NCBI RefSeq assembly: GCF_009914755.1 | Contig: NC_060942.1 | Direction: 5' to 3' (one strand) | Length of the DNA stretch: 64,000 nt | Source of the DNA: the human T2T-CHM13v2.0 reference genome, Homo sapiens | Part shown: in pieces, positions 2,748 through 64,000 of the stretch | How positions within the stretch are numbered: position 1 is the stretch's first letter | Layout of the letters: every line of letters starts with the position of its first letter | Program-made: the position numbers and the translations under genes | Notes under the pieces: model-generated | The model's input: only the letters and a program-made list of their open reading frames with translations | What the model was told of the DNA's origin: nothing | The model's database searches: none

Positions 2748-3756
2748 TATTATCACTTTTTTTAATGCCTGTGTGCTGGGAAACTTCCCTTAGGGATAGA
2801 CAAGGACTATCTACTCAAGCTGCTAGTAAATTTAATGCCATCTTCGAGATAGATGCACAGATTTAGGGACATGCTATGGAGAGGAGCTGCCAGACAGGGT
2901 TTCACATACCAGGGACCTGGTTTAGAATCCTCCTACAGAATGCCCAGGTCAATGAACTGGCAGCTCTAACAGTCTGCCCTTCAGAACCTCTGTAAACAGA
3001 GAGGAGAAAAGGCTACCCTTCAGTCACTGATCAAAAATAAAGTGTCATGATTTGATTTGATATTAAAACATATAAGCTAACAGCCTGGTTAGTTTTCCAT
3101 AGTTTCCAACTTCACACTATTCGTAAAACTTAGAACCAATATTCCATGTAATTGTTAATGAAGCTCTATTTTCTTCCTCTTTTTCTCTTTCTTTCCTTCA
3201 TTTTTTTTTATTATACTTTAAGTTCTAGCGTACATGTGCACAACGTGCAGGTTTGATACATAGGTATGTGCCATGTTGGTTTGCTGCACCCATCAACTCA
3301 TCATTTACATTAGGTATTTCTCCTAATGCTATCCCTCCCCCAGCCCCCCACCCCCCGACATGCCCTGGTGTGTGATGTTTCACGCCTTGTGTCCAAGTGT
3401 TCTCATTGTTCAATTCCCAGCTATGGGTGAGAATGTGCGGTGTTTGGTTTTCAGTCCTTGTGATAGTTTGTGGAGAATGATGGTTTCCAGCTTCATCCAT
3501 GTCCCTGCAGAGGACAATAACTCATCCTTTTTTATGGCTGCATAGTATTCCGTGGTGTATATGTGCCACATTTTCTTAATCCAGTCTATCATTGATGGAC
3601 ATTTGGGTTGGTTCCAAGTCTTTGCTATTGTGAATAGTGCTGCAATAAACATACATGTGCATATGTCTTTATAGTAGCATGATTTATAATCCTTTGGGTA
3701 TATACCCAGTAATGGGATTGCTGAGTCAAATGGTAATTCTAGACCTAGATCCTTGA

Positions 3757-4164
<408 letters not shown>

Positions 4165-6110
4165 TGTTTCCTGACTTTTTAATGATTGCCATTCTAACTG
4201 GTGTGAGATGGTATCTCATTGTGGTTTTGATTTGCATTTCTCTGATGGCCAGTGATGATGAGCATTTTTTCATGTGTCTGTTGGCTGCATAGATATCTTC
4301 TTTTGAGAAGTATCTGTTCATATACTTTGCCCACTTTTTGATGGGGTTGTTCGTTTTTTTCTTATAAATTTGCTTGAGTTCTTTGTAGGTTCTGGATATT
4401 AGCCCTTTGTCAGATGGGTAGATTGCAGAAATTTTCTCCTATTCTCTAGGTTGCCTGTTCACTCTGATGGTAGTTTCTTTTGCTGTGCAGAAGCTCTTTA
4501 GTTTAATTAGATACCATTTGTCCATTTTGGCTTCTATTGCCATTGCTTTTGGTGTTTTAGTCATGAAGTCCTTGCCCATGCCTATGTCCTGAATGGTATT
4601 GCCTAGGTTTTCTTCTAGGGTTTTTATGGATTTAGGTCTAACATTTAAGTCTTTAATCCATCTTGAAATAATTTTTTGTAAGGTGTAAGGAAGGGATCCA
4701 GTTTCAGCTTTCTACATATGGCAAGCCAGTTTTCCCAGTACCATTTATTAAATAGGGAATCCTTTCCCCATTTCTTGTTTTTGTCAGGTTTGTCAAAGAT
4801 CAGATGGTTGTAGATGTGTGGTGTTATTTCTGAGGCCTCTGTTCTGTTCCATTGGTCTATATATCTATTTTGGTACCAGTACCATGCTGTTTTGGTTACT
4901 GTAGTCTTGTATTATAGTTTGAAGTCAGGTAGCGTGATGCCTCCAGCTTTGTTCTTTTTGCTTAGGATTGTCTTGCAATGCAGGCTCTTTTTTGGTTCCA
5001 TATGAACTTTAATGTAGTTTTTTTCCAAATCTGTGAAGAAAGTCATTGATAGCTTGATGGGGATGGCGTTGAATCTATAAATTACTTGGGGCAGTGTGGC
5101 CATTTTCATGATATTGATTCTTCCTATTCATGAGCATGGAATGTTCTTCCATTTGTTTGTGTCCTCTTTATTTCATTGAGCAGTGGTTTGTAGTTCTCCT
5201 TGAAGAGGTCCTTCACGTCCCTTGTAAGTTGGATTCCTAGGTATTTTATTCTCTTTGTAGCACTTGTGAATGGGAGTTCACTCATGATTTGGCTCTCTGT
5301 TTGTCTGTTAATGGTGTATAGGAATGCTTGTAATTTTTGCACATTGATTTTGTATCCTGAGACTTTGCTGAAGTTGCTTATCAGCTTAAGGAGATTTTGG
5401 GCTGAGATGATGGGGTTTTCTAAATATATAATCATGTCATCTGCAAACAGGGACAATTTGACTTCCCGATTTCCTAATCGAATACCCTTTATTTCTTCCT
5501 CTTGCCTGATTGCCCTGGCCAGAATTTCCAACACTATGTTGAATAGGAGTGGTGAGAGAGGGCATCTTTGCCTTGTGCTGGTTTTCAAAGGGAATGCTTC
5601 CAGTTTTTGCCCATTCAGTATGATATTGGCTGTGGGTTTGTCATAGATAGCTCTTATTATTTTGAGATATGTTCCATCAATACTTAGTTTATTGAGAGTT
5701 TTTAGCATGAAGGGCTGTTGAATTTTGTCAAAGGCCTTTTCTGCATCTATTGAGATAATCATGTGGCTTTTGTCATTGTTCCTGTTTATATGATGGATTA
5801 TGTTTATTGATTTGCATATGTTGAACCAGCTTTGCATTCCAGGGATGAAGCCAACTTGATCATAGTGGATAAGCTTTTTGATGTGCTGCTGGATTTGGTT
5901 TGCCAGTATTTTATTGAGGATTTTCGCATTGATGTTCTTCAGGGATATTGGTCTGAAATTCTCTTTTTTTGTTGTGTCTCTGCCAGGCTTTGGTATCAGG
6001 ATGATGTTGGCTTCATAAAATGAGTCAGGGAGGATTCCCTCTTTTTCTATTGATTGGAATAGTTTCAGAGGGAATGGTACCAGCTCCCTTTGTACCTCTG
6101 GTAGAATTCA

Positions 6111-6302
<192 letters not shown>

Positions 6303-6529
6303 TTATCTGATGGTAGTTTGTATTTCTGTGGGATTGGTGGTGATATCCCCTTTATGATTTTTTGTTGCATCTATTTGATTCTTCTCTGTTTTTTTCTTTA
6401 TCAGTCTTGCTAGTGGTCTACCAATTTTGTTGATCTTTTCAAAAAACCAGCTCCTGGATTCATTGTTTTTTTTTGAAGAGTTGTTTGTGTCTCTATCTCT
6501 TTCAGTTCTGCTCTGATCTTAATTATTTA

Positions 6530-6889
<360 letters not shown>

Positions 6890-7504
6890 TTACATTTGCT
6901 GAGAAGTGCTTTACTTCCAATTAAGTGGTCAATTTTGGAATAAGTGCGGTGTGGTGCCGAGAAGAATGTATATTCTGTTGATTTGGGGTGGAGAGTTCTA
7001 TAGATGTCTATTAGGTCCGCTTGGTGCAGTCAGGTCCCTCAGCTGCAGGTCTGTTGGAGTTTGCTGGAGTTCTATTCCAGACCCTGTTTGTCTGGGTATC
7101 ACCAGTGCAGGCTGCAGAACAGCAAATATTGCAGAACAGCTGCCTGATCCTTCCTCTGGAAGCTTCATCCCAGAGGGGCAGCCACCTATATGAGGTGTCC
7201 ATCAGCCCCTACTGGGACCTACTGGGAGGTGTCTCCCAGTTAGGCTACACAGGGATCAGGGACCCACTTGAGGAGGCAGTCTCTCCATTCTCAGAGCTCA
7301 AACACTGTGCTGGGAGAACCACTGCCCTCTTCAGAGCTGTCAGACAGGGACATTTAAGTCTGCAGAAGTTGTTTGCTGTCTTTTGTTCAGCTATGCCCTG
7401 CCAACAGAGGTGAAGTCTAGAGGCAGTAGGCCTTGTTGAGCTGTGGTGGGCTCCACCCAGTTCGAGCTTCCTGGACGCTTTGTTTACCTACTCAAGCCTC
7501 AGCA

Positions 7505-9379: not shown

Positions 9380-12300
9380 TACCGTAAAGACACACTTAAG
9401 TATATAGCCTGCAGAACCTATAAGGCAACCACACAATAGAAACTAGAAAGCAACCAGCTAACAATTTCATGTTAGGATCAAAACCTCATATGTCAATATT
9501 AACTTTGAATGTAAATGATCTAAATGCTCCACTTAAAAGGCACAGAGTGAAAAGTTCGATGAAAAAACAAGACCCATCCATCCTTTGTCTTCAAGAGAGC
9601 CATCTCAAACATAATGACGCCAATAGGCTCAAAGCAAAGGGTTGTAGAAAGATCTACCATGGAAACGGAAAACAAAAAGAGCAGAGATTGCTATTCTTAT
9701 ATTAGATAAAACAGATTTTAAACCAAAAACAGTAAAAGAGGACAAAGAAGGGCACTACATAATGTTAAATGGTTCAATTCAAGAAGACTTAATTATTCTA
9801 AAAATATACACACCTAAAATTGGAGCACCCAGATACATAGAACAAGAACTTCTAGTTCTCCAAAAAGACTTGACAGCCACACAATGATAGTGGGGGACTT
9901 CAATACCCCACTAACAGCATTAGACAGGCTATTGAGGCAGAACACCAACGAAGAAATTCTGGACTTAAACTGAACATGTGACCAATTGGACCTAATAGAC
10001 ATATACAGAATATTGCCCCCAACAACCACAAAATGGACATTTTTTAAAATCTGCACATGGAACATACTCCAAGATTGACCACATGCTCAGCTGTAAAATG
10101 AGTCAATAAATTCCAAAAAATAGAAATCATACCAGTCATACTCTTGGACAACAGTGGAGTGAAAATATACATCAATACCAAGAAGATCTTTCAAAACCAC
10201 AATATCACATGGAAATTAAACAACTTGCTCTTGAATGACTTTTGAGTAAACAATGAAATCAAGGCAGAAATTTTAAAATTCCTTGAAATAAATGGAAACA
10301 GAGACACAACATATCAAAGTCTCTGGGATGCAGCAAAAGCAGTGTTAAGAGGAAAGTTTATAGTGCTAAATGCCTACCTCACAAAAAAAGACCTGAAATT
10401 AATGATCTAGTATCAAATTTCAAGGAACTAGAAAACAACAGGAACACACTAATCCCAAAGATAGCAGAAAAAAAGAAATACTAAAATTGGAGTGGACCTA
10501 ATGAAATTGAGACCCAAAAATCCACACAAAGAATCAATGAAACCAAAAGTTGGTTCTCTGAAAGGATAAGCAAGATTGGTAGATTGCTAGCTAGATTAAC
10601 AAAGAAAAACAGAGAGAAGGTCCAAATAAGCATAATCAGAAATAACAAGGGTGTCATTACAACCAATCCCACAGAAATACAAAAGATCCGTAGAGAGTAT
10701 TATTAACACCTTTATGCACACAAACTAGAAAGCCTAGAGGAAGTGGATAAATTCCTGGTCACATACAATCTCCCAAAATTGAATCAGAAAGAAACTGAAA
10801 CACTGAATAAATCAACAGACTTCCAAAGTTGAATCAGTAATAAAGATTCTACCAACGAAAAAAAAGCCTCAAGCCAGATGGATTCTCAGCCAAATTCTAC
10901 CAGATGTACAAAGAGCTGGTACCAATTCTACTGAACCTATTCCAAAAAAATCAAGGAGAAACTCTTCTCCAACTCACTCTATGAAGCCAGCATCCCTCTG
11001 ATACTGAAACCTGGCAAAGAAACAATGAAAAAAGAAAACTACAGGCCAACATCCCTGAAGAACACAGATGCAAAAATCCTCAACTAAATACTAGCAAACT
11101 GAATTCAACAGCACATCAAAAAGTTAATTTACCATGATCAAATAGGCTTCATTCCCGGGATACAAGGTTGGTTCAATATACATCAAATAAATGTGATTTA
11201 CCACATAAACAGAATTTAAAACAAAAACCATATGATCATCTCAATAGATGCAGAAATAGTTTTCAAAATTCTTGAGAAACTAGACATTGAAGGAGCATAT
11301 ATCAAAAAAATAAGAGCCATCTATGACAAACACAGCCAGCATCATACTGAATGTGCAAGAATTGGAACCATTTCCGTGGAGAACTGGAATAAGACAAAGA
11401 TGCCCATTCTCACTATGCCTATTCAACATAGTACTGGAAGCACTAGGCAGAGGAATCAGGCAAAAGAAAGGAATAAAAAACATCCAAATAGGAAAAGAAG
11501 AAATCCAACTATCTCTCTTTGTAGACAACATGATTCTATACTTAAAAAACACTAAAGACTCCACCAAAAGGCTCCTGGAACTGATAAATGACTTTACTAT
11601 GGTTTCAGGGTATAAAATCAATATAAAAGTTCTTTAGTTTGATTAGATCACATTTGTCAGTTTTGGCTTTTGTTGCAATGGCTTTTGGTGTTTTAGTCAT
11701 GAAGTCTTTGCCCATGCCTATGTCCTGAATGGTATTGCTTAGGTTTTCTTCTAGGGTTTTTATGGTTTGGGGTTTTACATTTAAGTCTTTAATCCATCTT
11801 GAGTTAATTTTTGTATAAGATGTAAGGAAGGGGTCCAGTTTCTGTTTTCTGCATATGGCTAGCCAGTTTTCCCAGCACCATTTATTAAATAGGGAATCCT
11901 TTCCCCATTTCTTGTTTTTGTCAGGTTTGTCAAAAATCAGATGACTGTAGATGTGTGGTATTATTTCTGAGGTCTTTGTTCTGTTCCACTGGTCTATATA
12001 TCTCTTTTGGTACCAGTATCATGCTGTTTTGGTTACTGTAGCCTTGTAGTATAGTTTGAAGTCAGGTAGCATTCAGGCAACCTACAGAATGGGAGAAAAT
12101 TTTTGCAATCTACCCATCTGACAAACATCTAATATCCAGAATCTACATGGAACTTAAACAAATTTACAAGGAAAAAGCAAACCCATCAAAAAGTGGGTGA
12201 AGGATATGAACAGACACTTCTCAAAAGAAGACATTTATGTGGCGAAAAAACATTAAAAAAAAAAGCTCAACATGACTGGTCATTAGAGAAATGCAAATCA

Positions 12301-14490
12301 AAACCACAATGAGATACCATCTCACGTCACTTAGAATGACAATGATTAGAAAGTCAGGAAACAACAGATGCTGGTGAGGCTGAAGAGAAATAGGAATGCT
12401 TTTACACTGTTGGTGTAAATTAATTCAATCATAGTGGAAGATGGCGTGGTGATTCCTCAAGGATCTAGAACCAGAAATTCCATTTGACCCAGCAATCCCA
12501 TTACTGGTTATATAACCAAAGGATTATAACTCATTCTATTATAAAGACACATGCACATGTATGTTTACTCCGGCACTATTTACAATAGCAAAGACTTGTA
12601 ACTAACCCAAATGCCCATCAATGATAGGCTGGATAAAGAAAATGTGGCACATATACACCATGGAATACTATGCAGCCATAAAAAAGAATGAGTTCATTTC
12701 CTTTGCAGGAACATGGATGAAGCTAGAAGCCATCATTCTCAGCAAACTAACACAGGAACAGAAAACCAAACACTGCCTGTTCTCACCCATAAGTGGGAGT
12801 ACAAAGTGGCTGTACTTCCCAAAGCAAACTGCAGATTCAACACTATTCCTATCAAACTACCAATGGCATTTTTCACAGAACTGGAAAAAAAAAAAACAAA
12901 CCTATCCTAAAACTCACTTCAATGAAAAAGGAGCCTGAATAGTGAAAGCAATCCTAAGCAAAAAGGAAAAAGCTGGAGGCATCACATTACTCAACTTTGA
13001 ACTATACTATAAGGTTATAGTAACCCAAACAAGATGGTACTGGTACAAAAACAGACACATAAAACAGAATAGAGAATCAAGAAATAAGGTTGCATGCCTA
13101 CAGCCATCTGATCTTTGACAAAGTCGACAAAAATAAGCAATAGAAAGAACTCTCTATTCAATAAATGGTGTTGGGATGGCTGGTGAGCCATATATAGAAG
13201 AATGAAACTGGATTCCTACCTGTCACCATATACAAAAATTAACTCAAGATGGATTAAAATTTAAATGTAAGACCTCGAACTACAAGAATCCTAGAAGAAA
13301 ACTGAGGAAACATCATTCTGGACATCAGCCATGGGAAATAACTTAAAAGTAAGTCCTCAAAAGTAGTTGCAACAACAACAAAAATTGACAAGTGGGACCT
13401 AATTAAACTAAAGAGCTTCTGCACAGTAAAAGAACTATCAACAGAGTAAATAGACAATCTACAGAACAGGAGACAAGTGTTTGCAAACTATGCATCCAAC
13501 AAAGGTCTAATATACAGAATTGATAAGGAACTTAAAACACTTGAACAAGCAAAAAAACAGAACAAAACAAACAAAAAACAAATAATCCCACTGAGAAATG
13601 GTCAAAAGACATGAACAGACACTTCTCAAAAGAGTACATACAAGTGGCCAAGAAACATGTGAGAAAATGTTCCACATCATCAATCACAAGAGAAATGCAA
13701 ATCAAAACCATTATGAGATATTATCTCACACCAGTCAGAATAGGTATTGGTTTACAAATTAAAAACAACAACAACAACAACAGATATTGGCAAGGCTGCA
13801 GAGAAAAGGGAATGCTTATACACTGTCGGTGGGAAGGTAAATTAGTTCAGCCACTGTGGAAAGCTAATTCCTTTAATTTCTCAAAGGACTTAAAACAGAA
13901 CTAACATTTCACCCAGCAATTCCATTACTGGCTATATACCCAAAAGAAAACAAATCCTACTAAAAAGATACATGCATGTGTATGCTCATTGCACTATTCA
14001 CAATAGCAAAGACATGGAATCAACCTAGGTGTCCATCAATGGTATTTTGGATAAATAAAATGATATATATATAATGATATATATATATATACACACACAC
14101 ATATATATACACATATGGAGTACTACAAAGGCATAAAACAGAATGAAATCATGTTCTTTACAGTAACACGAGTGCAGCTGGAAACAATTATTCTAAGCGA
14201 ATTAATGTAGGAACATAAAACTCAATACTATATGTCCTTACTTATAAGCAGGAGCTAAACAATGACTACTTATGGACATAAATAGGACAACAATTGTGAC
14301 TGGGGACTTCTAGAGTGAGGAGGGAGGATGGAGCCAATGGTTGAAAAACCAACTGTTGGGTACTATGCTCAGTATCTGGGTGATGGGATCATTTATACCT
14401 CAAACCACAGCATCATGCAATATACTCAGGAAAAGAACCTGCACATGTACTGCCTGAATCTAAAACAAAAATTGAAAAATAAAAGATAAA
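9380..14490 (+). mobile_element. Older L1 (L1PB-like): inter-ORF region, decayed ORF2 and 3'UTR
   Basis: ORF2 start MLGSKPHMSILTLNVN at 9469, RT fragments 11232-11637, 3'UTR and A-tail to about 14490; interrupted at 11627-12800. Confidence 0.92.
11627..12800 (+). mobile_element. Younger 5'-inverted (twin-primed) L1PA fragment nested in the older L1
   Basis: 11627-12072 is minus-strand ORF2; 12074-12800 is plus-strand ORF2 end/3'UTR start; no poly-A. Confidence 0.88.
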
Positions 14491-29294: not shown

Positions 29295-29581
29295 GATATA
29301 TTTATCAACTGAGAATATTTGAATTGTTTGAACTTTATGGATATTATAAATAATATATGATATAAACACATAAACATTCATGTACAAATTTTTCTGTGGG
29401 CATATATTTTCAACTCTCTTGGGAATAGACCTAAGAATGGAATAGCTGGTTCATATAATAACTCTATGTTTAACCTTTGGAAGAACCATCAGACTTTTCC
29501 AAAGTGGCTGAACCATCTTACAATTCTCCAAGTAATATATAAAATTCCAATTTCTCCACATTTTTGGCATACTTGTTATCT

Positions 29582-29868
29582 TGTTTGTTTTTTTAAATCT
29601 CACTCTGTTGTCCAGGCTGGAGTGCAGTGACACAAACATGGCTCACTGCAGCCTCAACCTCTTGAGCTCAAGCAATCCTCCTGCCTCAGCCTGCTGTGTA
29701 GCTGGTACCACATGTGCATGCCACCGACTTGGCTTTTTAATATTTTTTTGTAGAGATGGGGTCTCATTTTGTTACCTAGGCTGGTCTTGAACTCCTGGGC
29801 TCAAGCAATCCTCCCACCTTGGACTCCCAAAGTGATGAGATTACAGGTGTGAGCCACCATGTCCAGCC
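29582..29868 (-). mobile_element. AluJ
   Basis: J diagnostics GCTCACTGCAGCCTC and GGGCTCAAGCAATCC. Confidence 0.9.
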
Positions 29869-31290
29869 CTGTCTTTTTTATTTTAGCCATTCCTAGGAGT
29901 GTAAAGTGATATTTCATCATGGTTTAGATTTGCATTTCCCTGATGACTAACAATGCTGAACACCTTTTATGTGCTTATTGGACATTCATACGTCTTCTTT
30001 GGAGAAATGTCTATTCAGATCCTTTTCCTGTTTTTTAATTGAGTTGTTTCTCATTATTGAGTTGTAAGTGTTCCTTGTATATTCTAGTTACAAGTGGCTT
30101 ATCAAGTATATAATTTGCAAATATTTTTCCCATCCTTTGGGTTGTCTTTTCACTTTCTTTATAGTGACCTTTGAAACACAAAGTTTTTTAATGTTGAAAT
30201 CTAATTTACCTTATTTTTCTTTTGTTGCTTGTGATTTTGGTGTCAGAGTTAAGGAACCCATTGTCATGAAGATTTATGATTATGTTTTCTCCTAAGAGTT
30301 TTATAGTTTAGGCTCTTACATTTAGGTCTTTGATTAATTTTGAGGTTTTTATCTATGTGAGGTAAGGGTCAAATTTATTGTTTTGCATATGAATATCCAT
30401 TTACGCCAGTATTATTTGTTAAAAATACTATTCTTTCTCCATTAAACTGTCTTGCCAACCCTGTTGAAAATCAATTGACCATAAATATGAGGGTTGATTT
30501 CTGAGCTCTCAATTCCAATCCATTGATGAACCACACTGTCTTAATTACTATGGCTTTATGGTAAGTTTTAAAATTGAAAGTGTGATTCTTCCAACTTTGT
30601 TCATGTTTTTCAGGATTGTTTTAGTTATTCTGAGTCTCTTGAATTTCTGTATGAATTTTTGACTCAGCTTATCAATTTTGGCAAAAAAGGCAGCTGGGAT
30701 TTTAACAGCAAGTATGTTGAATTTATAGATAAATTTGGAGAGTTATTGCCATTTTAACAATGTTTAGTCTTCCAATCCTTGATCATTAGATATCTTTCCA
30801 TTTATTGAGGTTTTATTTAATTTATTTGGATAATGTTTTATAGCTTGAGTGTAAGTTTTGCAATTGTTTTGTTAAATGTATCCTTAATTTTGTATTTTAT
30901 TCTTTGTAATGCTACTATAAATGAAATTATTTTCTTAATTCCACTTCAAATTGTTCATTACTAGTATATAGAAATGCAAATCATTTTTATAAGTGATTGT
31001 ATCCTGCCACCTCATTGAAGTCATTTGTTAATTCTAATTTTTTTTTTGGTGGATTATTTAGGATTTTTCAAGAGATAGTTTCTCCTTTCCAATCTACATA
31101 CTGGACTTTACTTTTTAACTATACGTTTCATATGAAATTTTGATGATTCTTCCCTAAAATGACTGAAAAATAGAAATAATAATGAAGCAATATATAAGAA
31201 GATGTATGTTATATTTAAATTACTTGGATATTTATGATAGAAAAAAATATATCTACCCTATGTCAGGCCTTGTGCTAAGTGACTCCTACA

Positions 31291-34150: not shown

Positions 34151-34699
34151 GGTTTTATTTTAAGTTTTACATTTTACACTAGTACAAGTATTAGTTAACC
34201 AATGATGAAACCGTGCATTTTTCAATATTGCTGGCAAGGAAACAGTTGGATATATTTCAATTGCCTACATTACGAGTAAATTTTTGATACAGGTAAAGAA
34301 AGTAGTGGGTGAAGGAGAGATCCAAGTACGTTACCACTTATCCTCTTCTCAGAATACTCTTTCCTGATGACCCAGTAGCAGAGTTTCCTCATAAGGTTAC
34401 CACCAGTAATAACAGATGTTATTTTTCTCCCCTTGCCTTTTACTATTGTTTATTTTATGACTAAAACCCTTGGACCCTCTGCCATTCTGCTTCCTTCTTG
34501 TTCTTAAGGTTGGTGGTTCTTGAGCCTAATTACTCATCAGAATAACTTTGGCCATCTTAGAAACTGTAGGATTCCCCAACCAATTCCAGAACTCATGAAC
34601 TGAAATGTCCCAGGGAAAGACCTCAGTAATCCACGTTAAAAAAAAAATGCTTCTCGTGTGATTATGATCTGAAGGAGAGCTAGGAACCCTTGTCTCACT

Positions 34700-34810
34700 C
34701 CTAGTTATGTGCCTTTGGGCAAATTATTTATTTTCTCTGTGACTCAGTTTCCTCAATTATAAAATAGGAATCTTAATGGTACCTATCTCACAGAGTTGTT
34801 GTCAGTATAA
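34700..34810 (+). mobile_element. MIR fragment
   Basis: GGGCAAATTATTT...CTCAGTTTCCTCAATTATAAAATAGG...TACCTATCTCACAG. Confidence 0.75.
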
Positions 34811-34869
34811 AAAGATGTAGACAATTCAGAGTTCATGTAACATATTTGGATGGGAAACTCAGCCACTGA

Positions 34870-35041
34870 AGGAAATGCCAGTTCTAAAGGCCTTAGGAAC
34901 TCAGGGTTTTCCCAAAAACAGGAAGGTTCTCATGGAGTCATCTCTGGTTCTGATTTCTGAGGTCATTTTGTGAGCTCCTTTAAGAGATGAGCAATTCTAC
35001 CACCACAGAGTTAAATGTGGTTTCATGGATATCAGCTACAG
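34870..35041 (-). repeat. Unique 3' flank of AluJ; donor of the inverted duplication at 58783-58950
   Basis: Reverse complement of 34918-35041 aligns without gaps to 58783-58906 (114/124 identical by manual count); gapped similarity continues to CTGGCATTTCC. Confidence 0.95.
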
Positions 35042-35359
35042 TTTTTTTGTTGTTTTTGTTTTCATTTATTTATTTGAGATGAGGTCTCACTCTGTCACCC
35101 AGGCTGAAGTGCAGTGGCACAATCACGGCTCACTGAAGCCTTGACCTTCCTGGGCTCAAGTGATTCTCCCGCCTCAGGCTCTCCAGCAGCTGGGACTACA
35201 GGCACCACACTTGGCTAATTTTAAAATTTATTTTATTTTTTGTTGAGACAGGGTCTCACTATGTTGCCCAGGTTGCTCTCAAACTCCTGGGCTTAAGTGA
35301 TCCTCTTGCCTCATCCTTCAAAAGTGTTGGGATTCCAGGCATGAGTCACCATGCCTGGC
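35042..35359 (-). mobile_element. AluJ (donor element)
   Basis: Full dimer; TSD ATCAGCTAC(A/T)G at 35031-35041 / 35360-35370. Confidence 0.93.
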
Positions 35360-35439
35360 ATCAGCTACTGTCATAAAACCTGCCTACATGCCTGTTTTGG
35401 TGTACCACATGCCTATTTTGGAGTACTGCCCCTACTCCC

Positions 35440-42090: not shown

Positions 42091-42320
42091 AGTAGAGAAC
42101 TTAGGATTGCCAAGCAACATTAAGGACTCATCAATTTATCCTGGTACCAATCCATCTTGTGTAATTTTCTGTCACAATCTACAGTTGCCATATATGAAAA
42201 CAGACACCCTGGCTGATCTTGGGGATGAAACCATGAAATATAGTATTTTGTGATACATTGGTTATGAGGCTTCTTCATGACCCGAGCAAAACACACCCAC
42301 AAAAAGATTCCAAAATCATT

Positions 42321-42623
42321 TTTATTTTATTTATTTATTTTTTGAGATGGAGTCTTGCTCTGTCGCCCAGGCTGGACTGCAGTGGCGCGATCTTGGCTCA
42401 CTGCAACCTCCGCCTCCCAGGTTCAAGCAATGCTCCTGCCTCAGCCTCCTGAGTAACAGGGACTACAGGCAAGTGCCATGACGCCCGGCTAATTTTTGTA
42501 TTTTTAGTAGAGACGGGGTTTCACCATATTGGCCAGGCTGGTCTCGAACTCCTGACCCCATGATCCACCCGCCTCGGCCTCCCAAAGTGCTGGGATTATA
42601 GGCGTGAGCCACCGTGCCCGGCC
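42321..42623 (-). mobile_element. AluS (Sg/Sc-like)
   Basis: Full dimer; TSD C(A/C)AAATCATT. Confidence 0.95.
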
Positions 42624-43417
42624 CCAAATCATTAAGTGAATCCAGGAACAGTAAATTTTTTCTCAAACACTCTGAACCTAGCAAAACGGAGAAGATTGGC
42701 CAGTCCATATATCTACTTAACTAGTAGCAAGATACTACTCCATTAATGTGATAATCATTGGTTAAATGATTTTTGGGTTATACATTAAATTCCTATGTGA
42801 CTGTGTAGTATGATTAGTGACCCAAAAGTTGTTTAATTCTTGGAAACTGGCAAAATGAAGTATCTAGAATTGCAATGCTCACAAATGGACCTAGAAGGTA
42901 GTGACTACACCAAAGATCTGATACATTGTGAATCATGGATAAACCGTTGGCTGCTCTGTCTTTTTGGAATCACTCCTCCATTTCTTTCCATTGAATTCCT
43001 TTTTGGGGTCTCCTATGTTCTAGGCCCTGTGGTCCTAACCCTCATGGGGCTTTCAGTAGGGAAGGAGGCAGGCACAATGGCAAATGTTTAAAACCCAGGC
43101 AGAATCATGCAGTAAGAAATGAAGCTAAAAGGTTGAGAAATAGTAGAGGAAAGTGAATTAATTTTGTCTGTTGGATTAGCACACACACACAAAATGTACT
43201 TTCAAGTTTCTGTATAAAACACGATAAAACTTTTAGCATTCTGTGACTTAGGGAAAAATAACAGACAGAACACTTAATGAAAACTAAGTTTCTTCTTTCA
43301 TTTAAAAATGATCCTTATTTTATTTTCAAGTTTTATACTTCTTTGGTCTGTGATGAATTAGAGAAACTGTGCAACTTGCCACCAAACCTCTTAATTGCCT
43401 TAATTGCTTGGTTTATT

Positions 43418-50554: not shown

Positions 50555-50745
50555 TGGCTTAGTTGGAGTCCTAGAATGAGGCGGCTTGAATCAGACTTCT
50601 GGTTTCTTATTTGCTTAGCCTCAGTTTTCTTGTCTTGAAAAATGGGAATACTAATGGTACCTATCTCAGACTTGTTGTGGGATTAAATGAGATAGTGGGT
50701 GTGATGTGTTTAGAGCATTGCCTGGGACCCAATAACTGCTAAACT
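50555..50745 (+). mobile_element. MIR
   Basis: GCCTCAGTTTTCTTGTCTTGAAAAATGGGAATACTAATGGTACCTATCTCA...GATTAAATGAGATA. Confidence 0.8.
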
Positions 50746-55028: not shown

Positions 55029-55666
<638 letters not shown>

Positions 55667-56738: not shown

Positions 56739-56859
56739 CTGTATGTTGTTCTTCAATCCAGACTTGCAAATACATGAAGAGGAGTAGCCCAGCTACTCCA
56801 AATATCAGCACAGAGAGGAAGACTTGTTTGGGGTTCATGACCATTTCAGATGGCTGCAT
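56739..56859 (-). CDS. CHST9: Carbohydrate sulfotransferase 9 (GalNAc-4-O-sulfotransferase 2), first coding exon, codons 1-40 plus 1 nt
   Basis: [40 protein letters not shown](G) recognised as the CHST9 N-terminus with a type II TM anchor; donor ACAG|GTAACA at 56739/56738 (phase 1). Confidence 0.95.
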
Positions 56860-56890
56860 TTCTCCTTATTTCAGAATCTGAAGACCACAT
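56846..56890 (-). other. Overlapping out-of-frame uORF2 ([14 protein letters not shown])
   Basis: ATG 31 nt upstream of the main ATG; TGA at 56848-56846 inside the CDS. Confidence 0.7.
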
Positions 56891-56955
56891 GATTTGTTTT
56901 CCCGTAAAACTTCAGTCTTTTCTTGTTCTCTAAGAGCCCAATTCCATAAAGTAAC
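56860..56955 (-). other. CHST9: 5'UTR portion of the CHST9 start-codon exon
   Basis: Acceptor TTTCTTTTTAAAATTCTAG|GTTAC at 56956/56955; 96 nt before the ATG. Confidence 0.85.
56930..56947 (-). other. uORF1 (MELGS*)
   Basis: ATG GAA TTG GGC TCT TAG in the 5'UTR exon. Confidence 0.7.
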
Positions 56956-57788: not shown

Positions 57789-58046
57789 CAGTGAGAACAC
57801 GTGGATGCAGGGAGGGGAACATCACACACCAGGGCCTCTTGGGGGATGGGGGGCAAGGGGAGGGAGAGCATTAGGACAAATACCTAATGTATGCGGAGCT
57901 TAAATCCTAGATGACGGGTTGATAGGTGCAGCAAACCACCATGGCACATGTATACCTATGTAACAAACCTGCACGTTCTGCACGTGTATCCCAGAACTTA
58001 AAGTAAAATAAAATAAAAATAAAAATAGAAAAAACAAACAAACAAA
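57789..58046 (+). mobile_element. 5'-truncated L1PA (approx. L1PA8) 3'UTR
   Basis: Perfect 16-bp TSD AAGAATCCCTGTTCCC (57773-57788 / 58047-58062) and A-tail. Confidence 0.95.
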
Positions 58047-58215: not shown

Positions 58216-58446
58216 GCCGAATAAATGTTTCTTAAATGTGAAGATATCATGCACATTGCTGCATCAAAAAGTTATCTCTTCTATTCCATTGCCTCAAAAT
58301 ATTTGAGGAGAGTCTTTGATGGAAAATATTGATTTTGCCTAAGAGGTGTTTTATGGGGTGCCAGTTAAAAGTTAAAAACTGCTGTGGGAAATTGCTTGTC
58401 TGGTTAAAGGATAATATTTAGGTATTCTTGGCAAAACCAATTTTCA

Positions 58447-59052
58447 GGGCTGGCGAGGTGGCTCATGCCTGTAATCCTAACACTTTGGAAGGCTGAGGCT
58501 GGAGGACTGCTTGACCTCAAGAGTTCAAGACCAACCTGAGCAGCATGGTGAAACCCTGTCTCTACAAAAAATAAAATAGATTTTAAAATTAGCCCAGCGT
58601 GGTGCCATGGGCCTCTAGTCCCAGATACTGGAAAGCCTGAGGTAGGAGGATCACTTGAGCCCAGAATGGTGGAGGCTGCAGTGAGCCATGATCAGGCCAC
58701 TGCGCTTCAGCCTAGGCAACAGAGCGAGACTCTGTCTCAAATAAATAGATAAATAAATAAATAAAAAACAAAAACAAAAAAACTGTAGCTGATATCCATG
58801 ATACCACATTTAACTTTGTGGTGATAGAATTCCTCATCTCTTAAAGGAGCTCAAAAAATGACCTCAGAAATCAGAACAAGAGATGACTCAATGGGAGCCC
58901 TCCTGTCAACCCTGCGTTTCTACAGTCCTTAAGGCTGGCTGGCATTTCCCTTGAGCCTGAAAGGTTGTGGCTGCAGTGAGCTGTGACTGTGCCAATGTAC
59001 TCCACCCTGGGCAACACAGCAAGATCGTGTCTCAAAAAAAAATACAAAATAA
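58447..59052 (+). mobile_element. Composite AluJ: full Alu + copied unique flank (58783-58950) + 3' part of a second Alu right arm and tail
   Basis: Whole unit bounded by TSD AAAACCA(A/G)TT(T/C)TCA (58433-58446 / 59053-59066). Confidence 0.92.
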
Positions 59053-59219
59053 AAAACCAGTTCTCAAACAAATGAGCTTCAAAGATAATGTAAGAATTCA
59101 GAATTAGAAGTGAATGTATTAAGTAATTAGAATGATTTCTTGATTAGAAAAAAAAACCCACCAAATAGTTAAAAGTTCTTATGCAAAATGAGAAAAATAT
59201 CATGTCATGAATACTTCTT

Positions 59220-61910: not shown

Positions 61911-63622
<1,712 letters not shown>

Positions 63623-64000
63623 AAGTTGTCTGTACAAACTATTTTCAGCTTTTTTTTTTTTTTCTTTTTACATTGTATTTTTCTGAAACTCTTACTAAAT
63701 GTTGAGGCCTTTCAATATACCTCACAAGGTTTTCAACTGCTCTGCCATTTATTTTAAAACATTCCTTTTTTCTTAAGCTGTAATCTGGGTAAATTCTTCT
63801 GAGCCATTTTGCAACTTAGCAATTTCTCTGTCTTTATCTATATCTTAGTGTTTATTTTGCCTGTTGTGTTTTCCTAATGCCGTATTTTTCATTTCTAATA
63901 TTCTGTTCCTACTTATTTCATATTCACTTGTTCAAGTTTCATTTTTCTTTGCTTTTCAAGTTATATATCCTTTAATTGAAAATCATCCTTTATCTCTTTG

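What the first reader, a model, noticed from the sequence alone, without database searches (positions are those of the whole stretch)
58433..59066. An Alu plus ~170 bp of its unique flank copied in inverted orientation ~23 kb away into a TSD-bounded chimeric Alu
Seen: 58783-58906 is the ungapped reverse complement of non-repeat DNA 34918-35041 (10 mismatches in 124, manual count), with gapped similarity continuing to 58950/34870. The Alu in front (58447-58782) shares private variants with the AluJ at 35042-35359: linker ACAAAAAATAAAATA..TTTTAAAATTAGCC, AACACTTT.GAAGG, CAACCTG, CTGGA.AGCCTGAGG, CTTCAGCCT and the AAAT/AAAC tail. The 35-kb Alu has both TSDs (ATCAGCTAC.G) while the copy carries only the 3' one, so the 35-kb element is the donor. 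After the copied flank the sequence switches at a CTT microhomology (about 58950) into the last ~90 nt and tail of a different Alu, and a 14-bp TSD (12/14 match) bounds the whole unit. Inference: either homology-initiated ectopic conversion (SDSA from an inverted Alu, running past its tail and returning by microhomology), or an RT template switch from one Alu RNA onto a local read-through Alu transcript (chimeric 3' transduction). The copy extends past, and lacks, the donor T5 run at 34914-34918, which argues against a simple Pol III transduction.
Basis: partly seen in the sequence, partly recalled or inferred. Interest (0 to 1): 0.85.

Follow-up and report, generated by a model that had tools for sequence, protein, structure and literature searches.

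The report
Alu plus flank copied into Alu
An old Alu repeat and about 167 bases of the unique DNA behind it were copied, tens of millions of years ago, into a second Alu insertion 23 kb away in the same CHST9 gene; it is a clean fossil of a known type of copying error, not a new kind of element.

Summary
Window 58457-58949 (+) aligns with 35350-34871 (-) at 80% over 501 columns. The match runs without a break from an AluJ through its A-rich tail into 167 bp of non-repeat flank.

That flank has exactly 2 places in the 3.1-Gb assembly. A 28-nt linker variant of the Alu also has exactly 2 places, the same two Alus. The two Alus are sisters among 59 AluJ (support 0.92-0.94). The 35-kb locus is the donor.

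The copy is a 606-bp unit inside one TSD: full AluJ, tail, donor flank, then the last ~85 nt and tail of another AluJ.

The mechanism cannot be settled without primate orthologues.
- **DNA-level copying (about 0.55):** repair or replication starts by Alu homology, runs into the donor flank and rejoins a pre-existing Alu. I favour it because donor and copy lie 23 kb apart in cis.
- **L1 reverse-transcriptase template jump or RNA ligation (about 0.3):** the copied flank ends inside TTTCCTT, a published weak Pol III terminator.

Either way it is a new member of a known kind, of moderate interest.

The parts
58433..58446 (+). 5' target-site duplication of the composite (AAAACCAATTTTCA). It starts with AAAA, so the bottom strand reads TTTT/G, close to the L1 endonuclease preference.
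   Evidence: 12 of 14 match to 59053-59066; 2 of 2000 shuffles reach this
58447..58738 (+). Full-length AluJ body, copied from (or converted by) the donor AluJ at 35359-35076. It begins at Alu position 1, directly after the TSD.
   Evidence: clusters as AluJ; 9 shared derived non-CpG states (4 of 1710 AluJ pairs have as many); sister to the donor with support 0.92-0.94; linker variant unique in the genome
58739..58782 (+). Internal degenerate A-rich tail, copied from the donor tail. Both share the AAAT repeats and the AAAAC...AAAAAAA pattern.
58783..58949 (+). 167-bp copy of the donor's unique 3' flank. It begins with the donor's 3' TSD (CTGTAGCTGAT, 58783-58793).
   Evidence: 17 mismatches in 163 aligned pairs plus 3 indels; only 2 places in the genome
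58945..58952 (+). Junction zone from flank into the second Alu (TCCCTT). It can be read as donor TTTCC(+C)TT or as Alu TC(G>C)CTT, giving 0-5 nt of imperfect microhomology.
58950..59033 (+). 3' fragment of a different AluJ (about consensus columns 199-283). It fits AluJ better than AluS (local score 92 against 80).
   Evidence: non-CpG divergence from the AluJ consensus 10 of 66
59034..59052 (+). Terminal A-rich tail of the composite
59053..59066 (+). 3' target-site duplication of the composite (AAAACCAGTTCTCA)
35360..35370 (-). Donor 5' TSD (CAGTAGCTGAT). It is absent from the copy.
35042..35359 (-). Donor AluJ: body 35359-35076, tail 35075-35042. It lies in the sense orientation of the CHST9 transcript. 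It has a later 7-bp deletion near 35197-35200 relative to the copy.
34871..35041 (-). Donor unique 3' flank that was copied. It includes the donor 3' TSD (35041-35031) and a T5 at 34918-34914 that lies in an 8-bp indel absent from the copy.
34869..34875 (-). TTTCCTT at the exact end of the copied tract. It matches a published non-canonical Pol III terminator motif. It is one of only 3 T-rich terminator-like clusters in 262 nt of donor flank.
   Evidence: PMC3141230 passages

Best explanation
**What it is (shown).** 58433-59066 is one L1-type insertion unit, 606 bp between 14-bp TSDs. Its interior is a mosaic, in this order:
- a full AluJ with its degenerate tail;
- 167 bp of unique DNA;
- the last ~85 nt and A-tail of a different AluJ.

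The AluJ, its tail and the unique DNA were all copied from the AluJ locus at 34871-35359. That locus lies on the opposite strand, 23 kb away, in the same CHST9 gene.

**How it arose (inferred, my preferred reading).**
1. An ordinary full-length AluJ already sat at 58.4 kb with these TSDs.
2. A break or stalled fork inside it was repaired using the nearby inverted AluJ as a DNA template, with entry by Alu-Alu homology.
3. Synthesis ran through the donor Alu and its tail and about 167 bp past the end of homology.
4. The new strand then let go and was joined back to the recipient Alu near consensus position ~197 by end joining with little or no microhomology.

This is long-tract conversion finished by end joining (BIR-EJ, or coupled homologous and non-homologous repair). 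Two replicative template switches (FoSTeS/MMBIR) would give the same product. The result replaced recipient positions from about 34 or earlier up to 196 with donor sequence and added the donor tail and flank.

The event is old, with flank divergence of 10.4%. It happened soon after the donor Alu itself had inserted.
For: **Copy, uniqueness and direction**
- One continuous alignment crosses Alu, tail and flank.
- The flank is found in 2 of 2 places genome-wide, and the linker variant in 2 of 2 places.
- The two Alus are sisters among 59 AluJ.
- Shared derived non-CpG states number 9, against a null mean of 2.3; 4 of 1710 AluJ pairs reach 9.
- The donor has both of its TSDs and the copy carries only the 3' one.

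**One event**
- Non-CpG divergence between copy and donor is 33 of 229 in the Alu and 17 of 163 in the flank, which are not different (Fisher p 0.28).

**For the DNA-level route**
1. Donor and copy are 23 kb apart in cis. A diffusible RNA inserted at random would land within +/-25 kb of its source with a chance of about 1.6e-5 (my arithmetic on 3.1 Gb). Ectopic repair is expected to favour near neighbours. The introduction of PMC8230782 (passages read) reports Alu-Alu conversion acting within about 10 kb, falling with distance.
2. The mechanism is shown experimentally in human cells: homology-initiated synthesis that aborts and is ligated to the second end. It occurred in 29 of 30 clones in one reporter, with more than 60% of junctions showing 1-5 bp of microhomology (PMC8047440, passages read).
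3. A read-through Pol III RNA would have had to pass the T4 in the shared linker (58581-58584 / 35226-35223). If the donor T5 is ancestral, it would have had to pass that too.
4. The terminal AluJ fragment looks at least as old as a typical AluJ. Its non-CpG divergence is 10 of 66, against 19 of 229 copy-specific changes in the transferred Alu. This is only a trend (Fisher p 0.105).
5. The copy starts GGG..., whereas the donor Alu starts one G short (T/GCC...). That fits a 5' end belonging to another Alu. This point is weak.
Against: - No orthologue shows the postulated plain AluJ at 58.4 kb. That step is inferred.
- No mosaic boundary is seen inside the Alu. Shared derived states run from column 34 to 252. 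Copy-only changes are even across it: 14 of 162 on the left and 5 of 67 on the right. The DNA model therefore needs one of two things: co-conversion of at least 160 nt on the invading side, or entry with 34 nt or less of homology.
- The copied tract ends inside TTTCCTT, a published weak Pol III terminator. It is one of only 3 terminator-like clusters in 262 nt of donor flank. I estimate the chance of that coincidence at roughly 3-10%. It is what an RNA 3' end would predict.
- The Alu starting exactly at position 1 next to the TSD is also what a full-length Pol III transcript predicts.
- The junction microhomology is imperfect, with an extra C.
- 23 kb is beyond the roughly 10-kb range quoted for Alu conversion.
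- The proximity argument is weakened by ascertainment.
Confidence: 0.55

Rival explanations
1. **L1-mediated chimeric retrocopy.** The donor AluJ was transcribed by Pol III from its own position 1, through its tail into the flank, and the RNA ended at the weak terminator TTTCCTT. During target-primed reverse transcription of another AluJ RNA at 58.4 kb, the L1 reverse transcriptase left that RNA near Alu position ~197. It then continued on the 3' end of the read-through RNA. Alternatively, the two RNAs were ligated beforehand. It copied that RNA to its 5' end. One TSD, one terminal A-tail and an internal second A-tail follow directly.
For: - The TSD is 12 of 14, there is a terminal A-tail, and the TSD starts with AAAA.
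- The 5' partner is full length, in sense orientation, and starts at Alu position 1 next to the TSD.
- Donor-type variants run evenly along the whole Alu, with no mosaic boundary.
- The transferred flank ends inside TTTCCTT, a terminator shown experimentally downstream of TRNAV18 (PMC3141230 passages). It is one of 3 T-rich clusters in 262 nt.
- The copy's version of the flank has no T4 run at all.
- CpG sites show 5 same-decay, 5 different-decay and 4 half-intact cases. The event therefore came soon after the donor's insertion, when the donor's B box CpG was still intact and AluJ RNAs were plausibly active.
- The two A stretches and the carried source 3' TSD are the textbook marks of a 3' transduction (PMC4859970 passages).
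Against: - There is no reason for donor and insertion to be 23 kb apart; the chance is about 1.6e-5 unless nascent local RNA is preferred.
- The RNA must read through the T4 in the linker shared by both copies, and through the donor T5 if that is ancestral, yet stop at a weaker signal.
- The 3' partner fragment is more diverged than expected if it was a fresh copy at the time of the event (10 of 66 against 19 of 229, p 0.105).
- The copy has a 5' G that the donor lacks.
- I found no described Alu-trailer-Alu chimera in the searches.
Confidence: 0.3
2. **RNA-templated break repair using the host gene's own transcript.** The CHST9 pre-mRNA contains the donor Alu and flank in the sense orientation. 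A break in a pre-existing Alu at 58.4 kb was bridged by reverse transcription of that nascent RNA. Priming was by microhomology in the flank, and capture at the other end was by Alu homology.
For: - The polarity fits. The donor Alu and flank are on the - strand, the strand of CHST9 (hub annotation).
- It explains the proximity in cis.
- It needs no Pol III read-through of T4 or T5 runs.
Against: - Nothing in the sequence separates it from DNA-templated repair.
- I read no paper on RNA-templated repair of this length in mammalian germ lines.
- It needs a pre-existing recipient Alu, just as the DNA model does.
Confidence: 0.05
3. **Not a single transfer.** This covers three variants:
- two independent Alu insertions at the same point of a duplicated or repeated flank;
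- a plain inverted segmental duplication with an unrelated truncated Alu next to it;
- the 58-kb unit as the source and the 35-kb locus as the copy.
For: - The raw non-CpG distance between the two Alus (14.4%) is only modestly below the AluJ pair mean of 18.9%. 116 of 1710 pairs are as close or closer.
- Each Alu has one unrelated AluJ that is marginally closer by raw distance.
Against: - The flank is unique apart from the two copies.
- The alignment is continuous across body, tail and flank.
- The linker variant is unique in the genome, and the two Alus are sisters.
- Homology stops exactly at the Alu 5' end on one side.
- The TSD pair encloses the whole composite, not just the truncated Alu.
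- Only the 35-kb Alu has its own TSD pair.
Confidence: 0.03

Closest known systems
Homology-initiated repair finished by end joining (BIR-EJ / long-tract gene conversion with end joining; 'coupled homologous and non-homologous repair', that name recalled)
   Same: Entry is by homology on one side only. Synthesis runs past the end of homology into donor flank. The strand is released and joined to the second end with 0-5 bp of microhomology, giving a net templated insertion (PMC8047440 passages).
   Different: Here it is seen as a fixed fossil tens of millions of years old. It lies between two dispersed ~300-bp repeats that were already diverged, 23 kb apart and inverted, rather than in a reporter with identical homology. 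The existence of a recipient Alu is inferred, not shown.
Alu-Alu non-allelic gene conversion (full and partial, giving hybrid Alus)
   Same: Donor-type variants are written into an Alu that keeps its own TSDs. It favours neighbours (PMC8230782: 98 cases, 69 of them partial; the range of about 10 kb is cited in its introduction).
   Different: Described conversions stay inside the Alu. Here the tract leaves the Alu, adds a second tail plus 167 bp of unique flank, and duplicates the Alu 3' end. That study excluded AluJ elements.
L1-mediated chimeric retrocopies (U6/L1, Alu/L1 and other small RNA/L1 chimeras)
   Same: One TSD pair and a terminal A-tail. The 5' partner is a full-length Pol III transcript in sense orientation, and the 3' partner is a 5'-truncated retroelement (bioRxiv 10.1101/2025.02.02.635956; PMC4476161, seen in a search listing only).
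   Different: The 3' partner is an Alu rather than L1. The 5' partner carries 167 nt of unique 3' trailer. The donor lies in cis, 23 kb away.
3' transduction by L1 and SVA
   Same: Two A-rich stretches, and the source's 3' TSD carried inside the insert (PMC4859970 passages).
   Different: Alu is a Pol III transcript with no poly(A) signal. The transduced piece here ends in a second Alu fragment rather than in a tail added after a downstream signal. Table 1 of that review lists one possible Alu case: MSH2, an 85-nt AluJ plus 99 nt of 3' sequence, noted as 'may be transduction or recombination'.
Alu cDNA recombining with a nearby genomic Alu during insertion
   Same: It yields chimeric Alus by joining an RT product to genomic Alu DNA near the insertion site (PMC3415434, supporting-figure legend).
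   Different: Those events make no direct repeats and take the 5' region, not the 3' flank, of the genomic Alu. Here a TSD is present and the 3' flank is captured.

Membership tests
L1-mediated chimeric retrocopy | A single TSD pair encloses both partners | tested here: met
   12 of 14 match, 58433-58446 against 59053-59066; 2 of 2000 shuffles reach this
L1-mediated chimeric retrocopy | Terminal A-tail and an L1 endonuclease-like target (TTTT/A) | tested here: met
   The tail is at 59034-59052. The TSD begins AAAA after GGC, so the bottom strand reads TTTT/G: the Ts match and the A does not
L1-mediated chimeric retrocopy | The 5' partner is a complete small RNA in sense orientation, ending at that RNA's natural 3' end | tested here: inconclusive
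   It starts at Alu position 1. The trailer ends inside TTTCCTT, a published weak terminator. However, a T4 in the linker, and possibly a T5, lie upstream.
L1-mediated chimeric retrocopy | Both partners arrive in one step (orthologues show an empty site or the full composite only) | not testable with these tools
   No primate genomes are held here
Alu-Alu gene conversion / BIR-EJ templated insertion | A recipient Alu was present at the site before the event | not testable with these tools
   Needs orthologues. The indirect hints are weak: terminal fragment divergence 10 of 66 against 19 of 229 (p 0.105), and the extra 5' G.
Alu-Alu gene conversion / BIR-EJ templated insertion | A tract of donor-specific variants in the recipient | tested here: met
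   9 shared derived non-CpG states (4 of 1710 pairs reach this); linker variant found in 2 of 2 places in the genome
Alu-Alu gene conversion / BIR-EJ templated insertion | A boundary inside the repeat between recipient-type and donor-type sequence | tested here: not met
   No boundary was detectable. Shared states span columns 34-252. Mismatch falls from 17% (columns 1-128) to 10.4% (columns 197-282 and flank), but the difference is not significant (p 0.12). Only columns 1-33 could be recipient.
Alu-Alu gene conversion / BIR-EJ templated insertion | Donor nearby in cis | tested here: met
   23.4-23.7 kb apart, inverted, same chromosome
Alu-Alu gene conversion / BIR-EJ templated insertion | Exit junction with short microhomology | tested here: inconclusive
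   TCCCTT can be read from either partner, but only with one extra or changed base
Classical 3' transduction | The transduced flank is followed directly by a new poly(A) tail | tested here: not met
   The flank is followed by ~85 nt of a second AluJ before the tail

The most novel reading that the evidence does not exclude
The composite is an Alu 3' transduction made by an RNA jump. A nascent Pol III read-through transcript of the donor AluJ, ended at the weak terminator TTTCCTT and still held near its gene, was picked up as second template by an L1 reverse transcriptase working 23 kb away on another Alu RNA. That would mean target-primed reverse transcription samples RNAs from its three-dimensional chromatin neighbourhood. 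Alu trailers could then be moved locally, a route for short-range sequence duplication that has not been catalogued.
Probability: 0.22. Interest if true: 0.6.

Novelty: new member of a known kind. Interest (0 to 1): 0.33.

Why it matters
The locus is a well-preserved natural example. The donor, the product, both TSD pairs and both junctions can all still be read, which is unusual for an event this old.

It shows that an Alu can carry unique neighbouring DNA to a second site. In repeat annotation the result looks like "Alu, unique DNA, Alu fragment", so events like this would go unnoticed.

If many such composites exist, the distribution of donor-to-copy distances would separate two processes that are otherwise hard to tell apart in old DNA: local DNA-templated repair between Alus, and RT template jumps. 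It would also give a rate for Alu conversions that overshoot the repeat.

For this locus alone there is no sign of function. It lies in a CHST9 intron, about 1.5 kb from the exon at 56739-56955 (hub annotation).

Tried and rejected
- **Local survey for analogues.**
  - I masked Alus in the window and in 200 kb of chr19, then self-blasted the rest. I looked at 3 chr19 candidates next to Alus.
  - One had a continuous non-Alu-plus-Alu alignment, but its non-Alu part is a multi-copy repeat (at least 40 scored matches, 392 candidates). The other two were not contiguous with an Alu.
  - So I confirmed no analogue in that 200 kb, which holds 194 near-full-length Alus. Other repeat families were not masked, so this survey is weak.
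- **Larger survey.** I dropped the survey.
- **Timing tests.** I hoped these would separate the models, but none is significant:
  - Alu against flank divergence, p 0.28;
  - left against right gradient, p 0.12;
  - terminal fragment against copy-specific divergence, p 0.105.
- **CpG states.** 5 sites show the same decay, 5 different decay and 4 are half intact (11 further sites were unclassifiable). This says the event came early after the donor's insertion, which fits both models.
- **Ancestral state of the 8-bp indel holding the donor T5.** It cannot be polarised without an outgroup.
- **Models rejected.** Independent insertions, a plain segmental duplication, the reverse direction of transfer, and Alu cDNA recombining with a genomic Alu (the PMC3415434 type). 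The last would capture the 5' flank, not the 3' flank, and leave no TSD.
- **Literature.** The searches found no description of an Alu + own trailer + partial Alu composite. Supplementary tables of the L1-chimera preprint were not opened and could list Alu-Alu cases.

Full report
**Observation.**

I read both regions and blasted 58300-59200 against the whole window. The outstanding hit is 58457-58949 (+) against 35350-34871 (-): 80.0% over 501 columns, E 4e-129. Every other hit is an ordinary Alu-Alu match of 69-76% that stops within the Alu. The repeat finder independently reports arms 34918-35061 / 58763-58906, 144 nt, 91% complementary.

A gapped alignment runs without interruption from Alu position ~11 through the body, the degenerate A-rich tail and 167 bp of non-Alu DNA. 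It ends at copy 58949 / donor 34871.

- 10 mismatches in the ungapped 124.
- Composite TSD 12 of 14; 2 of 2000 shuffles do as well.
- Donor TSD 10 of 11.

**Is the flank unique, and are the Alus really kin?**

The assembly holding the window (3.1 Gb, 24 contigs) can be searched. The flank 34860-35041 has exactly two places, donor and copy. Two controls show the same search does see old dispersed repeats:
- The next 181 bp outward (34690-34870) give at least 40 scored matches from 173 candidates. By recall this looks like a MIR.
- An unrelated chr19 segment gave at least 40 matches from 392 candidates.

A 28-nt pattern covering the odd linker shared by the two Alus has exactly two places in the genome, these two Alus, and none for the reversed control.

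For statistics I collected 206 near-full-length Alus: 12 from the window and 194 from 200 kb of chr19. I aligned them and split them by non-CpG diagnostic columns into 59 AluJ-type and 147 AluS/Y-type. Both Alus are AluJ.

At 229 non-CpG columns the results are:
- They differ at 33 (14.4%). The mean over AluJ pairs is 18.9%, and 116 of 1710 pairs are as close.
- They share 9 derived states. The null mean is 2.3, and 4 of 1710 pairs reach 9.
- Several of those states are not rare, occurring in 5 to 11 of 57 other AluJ. Four are rare (1-2 of 57).

In FastTree trees of the 59 AluJ the two are sisters, with support 0.92 on all columns and 0.94 on non-CpG columns. These trees exclude the shared linker insertion columns. 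By raw distance, each has one unrelated AluJ marginally closer.

**Anatomy.**

The composite, in order:
- 5' TSD, 58433-58446.
- AluJ body, 58447-58738, starting at Alu position 1.
- Internal tail, 58739-58782.
- Copy of the donor flank, 58783-58949. It opens with the donor's own 3' TSD, CTGTAGCTGAT.
- A junction zone around 58945-58952.
- The last ~85 nt of a different AluJ, 58950-59033. Its local score is 92 against the AluJ consensus and 80 against AluS.
- Terminal tail, 59034-59052.
- 3' TSD, 59053-59066.

The donor locus:
- It has its own TSD pair around the Alu alone (35370-35360 and 35041-35031), which fixes the direction of transfer.
- Since the event, the donor has lost 7 bp in the right arm.
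- Donor and copy differ by an 8-bp indel that holds the donor's T5.

**Timing.**

Flank divergence is 17 of 163 aligned pairs (10.4%; Jukes-Cantor 0.112). With neutral rates of about 1-2.2e-9 per site per year (recalled, not from a call), this puts the event very roughly 25-55 million years ago.

Alu non-CpG divergence (33 of 229) is not different from the flank (p 0.28). One transfer of the whole segment is therefore sufficient.

Among classifiable CpG sites, 5 decayed the same way in both copies, 5 decayed differently and 4 are still intact in one copy. Parallel decay after the split would give as many 'same' as 'different' cases. Few CpGs had therefore decayed before the event, which means it followed the donor's insertion fairly closely.

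**Mechanism.**

Two families of explanation give exactly this product.

*(A) DNA-level.* A normal AluJ already lay at 58.4 kb. Repair of a break, or a stalled fork, in it used the inverted AluJ 23 kb away as template. Synthesis overshot the Alu into 167 bp of donor flank. The strand was then joined back to the recipient Alu at about position 197.

*(B) RNA-level.* A Pol III read-through transcript of the donor served as second template for L1 reverse transcriptase that had begun on another AluJ RNA. Alternatively the two RNAs were ligated first.

Evidence for A:
- The cis distance of 23 kb. For a diffusible RNA the chance of landing within +/-25 kb of its source is about 1.6e-5.
- Alu conversion is reported to act among neighbours within about 10 kb (introduction of PMC8230782).
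- Homology-initiated synthesis that aborts and is end-joined is the main outcome in a human reporter. It occurred in 29 of 30 clones, with more than 60% of junctions showing 1-5 bp of microhomology (PMC8047440).
- A T4 inside the linker of both Alus, and perhaps the donor T5, stand in the way of Pol III.
- The terminal fragment is somewhat more diverged than the transferred part's copy-specific changes (10 of 66 against 19 of 229, p 0.105).
- The copy has a 5' G that the donor lacks.

Evidence for B:
- The Alu is donor-like along its whole length, with no detectable mosaic boundary. Shared states span columns 34-252. Copy-only changes are 14 of 162 on the left and 5 of 67 on the right. The mismatch gradient from 17% to 10.4% has p 0.12.
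- The unit starts at Alu position 1.
- The transferred flank ends inside TTTCCTT. This is the very motif shown to terminate Pol III downstream of TRNAV18 (PMC3141230). It is one of only three T-rich terminator-like clusters in 262 nt of donor flank.
- Pol III read-through of canonical signals is documented in that same paper.
- 113 Alu/LINE-1 chimeras of like build are catalogued (bioRxiv 10.1101/2025.02.02.635956).

I put A at about 0.55 and B at about 0.30. The remainder includes a repair event templated by the CHST9 pre-mRNA, whose polarity fits, at about 0.05.

**Known relatives and novelty.**

Each candidate process is established: Alu-Alu conversion, BIR-EJ, L1 chimeras and 3' transduction. 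A review table lists one disease insertion of an AluJ fragment with 99 nt of 3' sequence, noted as 'may be transduction or recombination' (PMC4859970).

My searches found no description of the specific build seen here: a whole Alu, its own trailer and part of a second Alu inside one TSD, with the donor still legible nearby. I did not open supplementary tables.

I file it as a new member of a known kind. It has moderate interest as a case study and as a template for a genome-wide census.

**What remains open.**

Whether a recipient Alu existed before the event, the ancestral state of the T5 indel, and whether such composites form a class. 

Noticed in passing
window 34697-34832: Just beyond the copied flank lies a multi-copy ancient dispersed repeat (at least 40 genome matches at 73-88%, 173 candidates). 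By recall its core looks like a MIR. The copied tract stops about 40 bp short of it. A 42-nt piece (34761-34802) also matches 50639-50678 at 86%.
   Followed up: partly
window 34906-34921 and 58904-58908: An 8-bp indel separates donor (TGTTTTTGGGAAAACCC) and copy (TGTCAACCC). It contains the donor's only T5 within the copied tract, so its ancestral state bears on the Pol III read-through model. It cannot be polarised here.
   Followed up: partly
window 35197-35200 vs 58606-58616: The donor Alu lacks 7 bp of the right-arm start that the copy retains. The donor therefore suffered a deletion after the transfer.
   Followed up: no
window 58447-58782 and 29573-29868: These two ~300-bp AluJ elements are absent from the hub's list of the longest soft-masked stretches, whose shortest entry is 196 bp. 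They may be unmasked, or masked only in pieces, in NCBI's file. Old AluJ copies like these can escape masking.
   Followed up: no
window 42320-42624 vs 55126-55624: Inverted Alu pairs 12.5-12.9 kb apart reach 85-92% complementarity over 132-186 nt (pairs I1, I2, I6). 55034-55629 holds two Alus in tandem. They are probably young members of the same subfamily. They were not examined for conversion.
   Followed up: no
window 3163-7404, 11609-14280, 29886-30443, 57789-58034, 61976-63623: After Alu masking, these blocks match one another at 65-93% (for example 4165-4570 against 62971-63375 at 93%, and 4491-4933 against 11627-12070 at 91%). They are presumably fragments of one LINE or LTR family. 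One fragment (57789-58034) lies only 400 bp upstream of the composite.
   Followed up: no
L012:5195-5668 (chr19 sample): A 145-bp non-Alu segment followed by an Alu aligns continuously with a second such pair 74 kb away (72% over 486 columns). The 145-bp part is itself a high-copy repeat (392 candidates), so it is not a flank-capture event. It may be a free Alu-like monomer or another SINE.
   Followed up: partly
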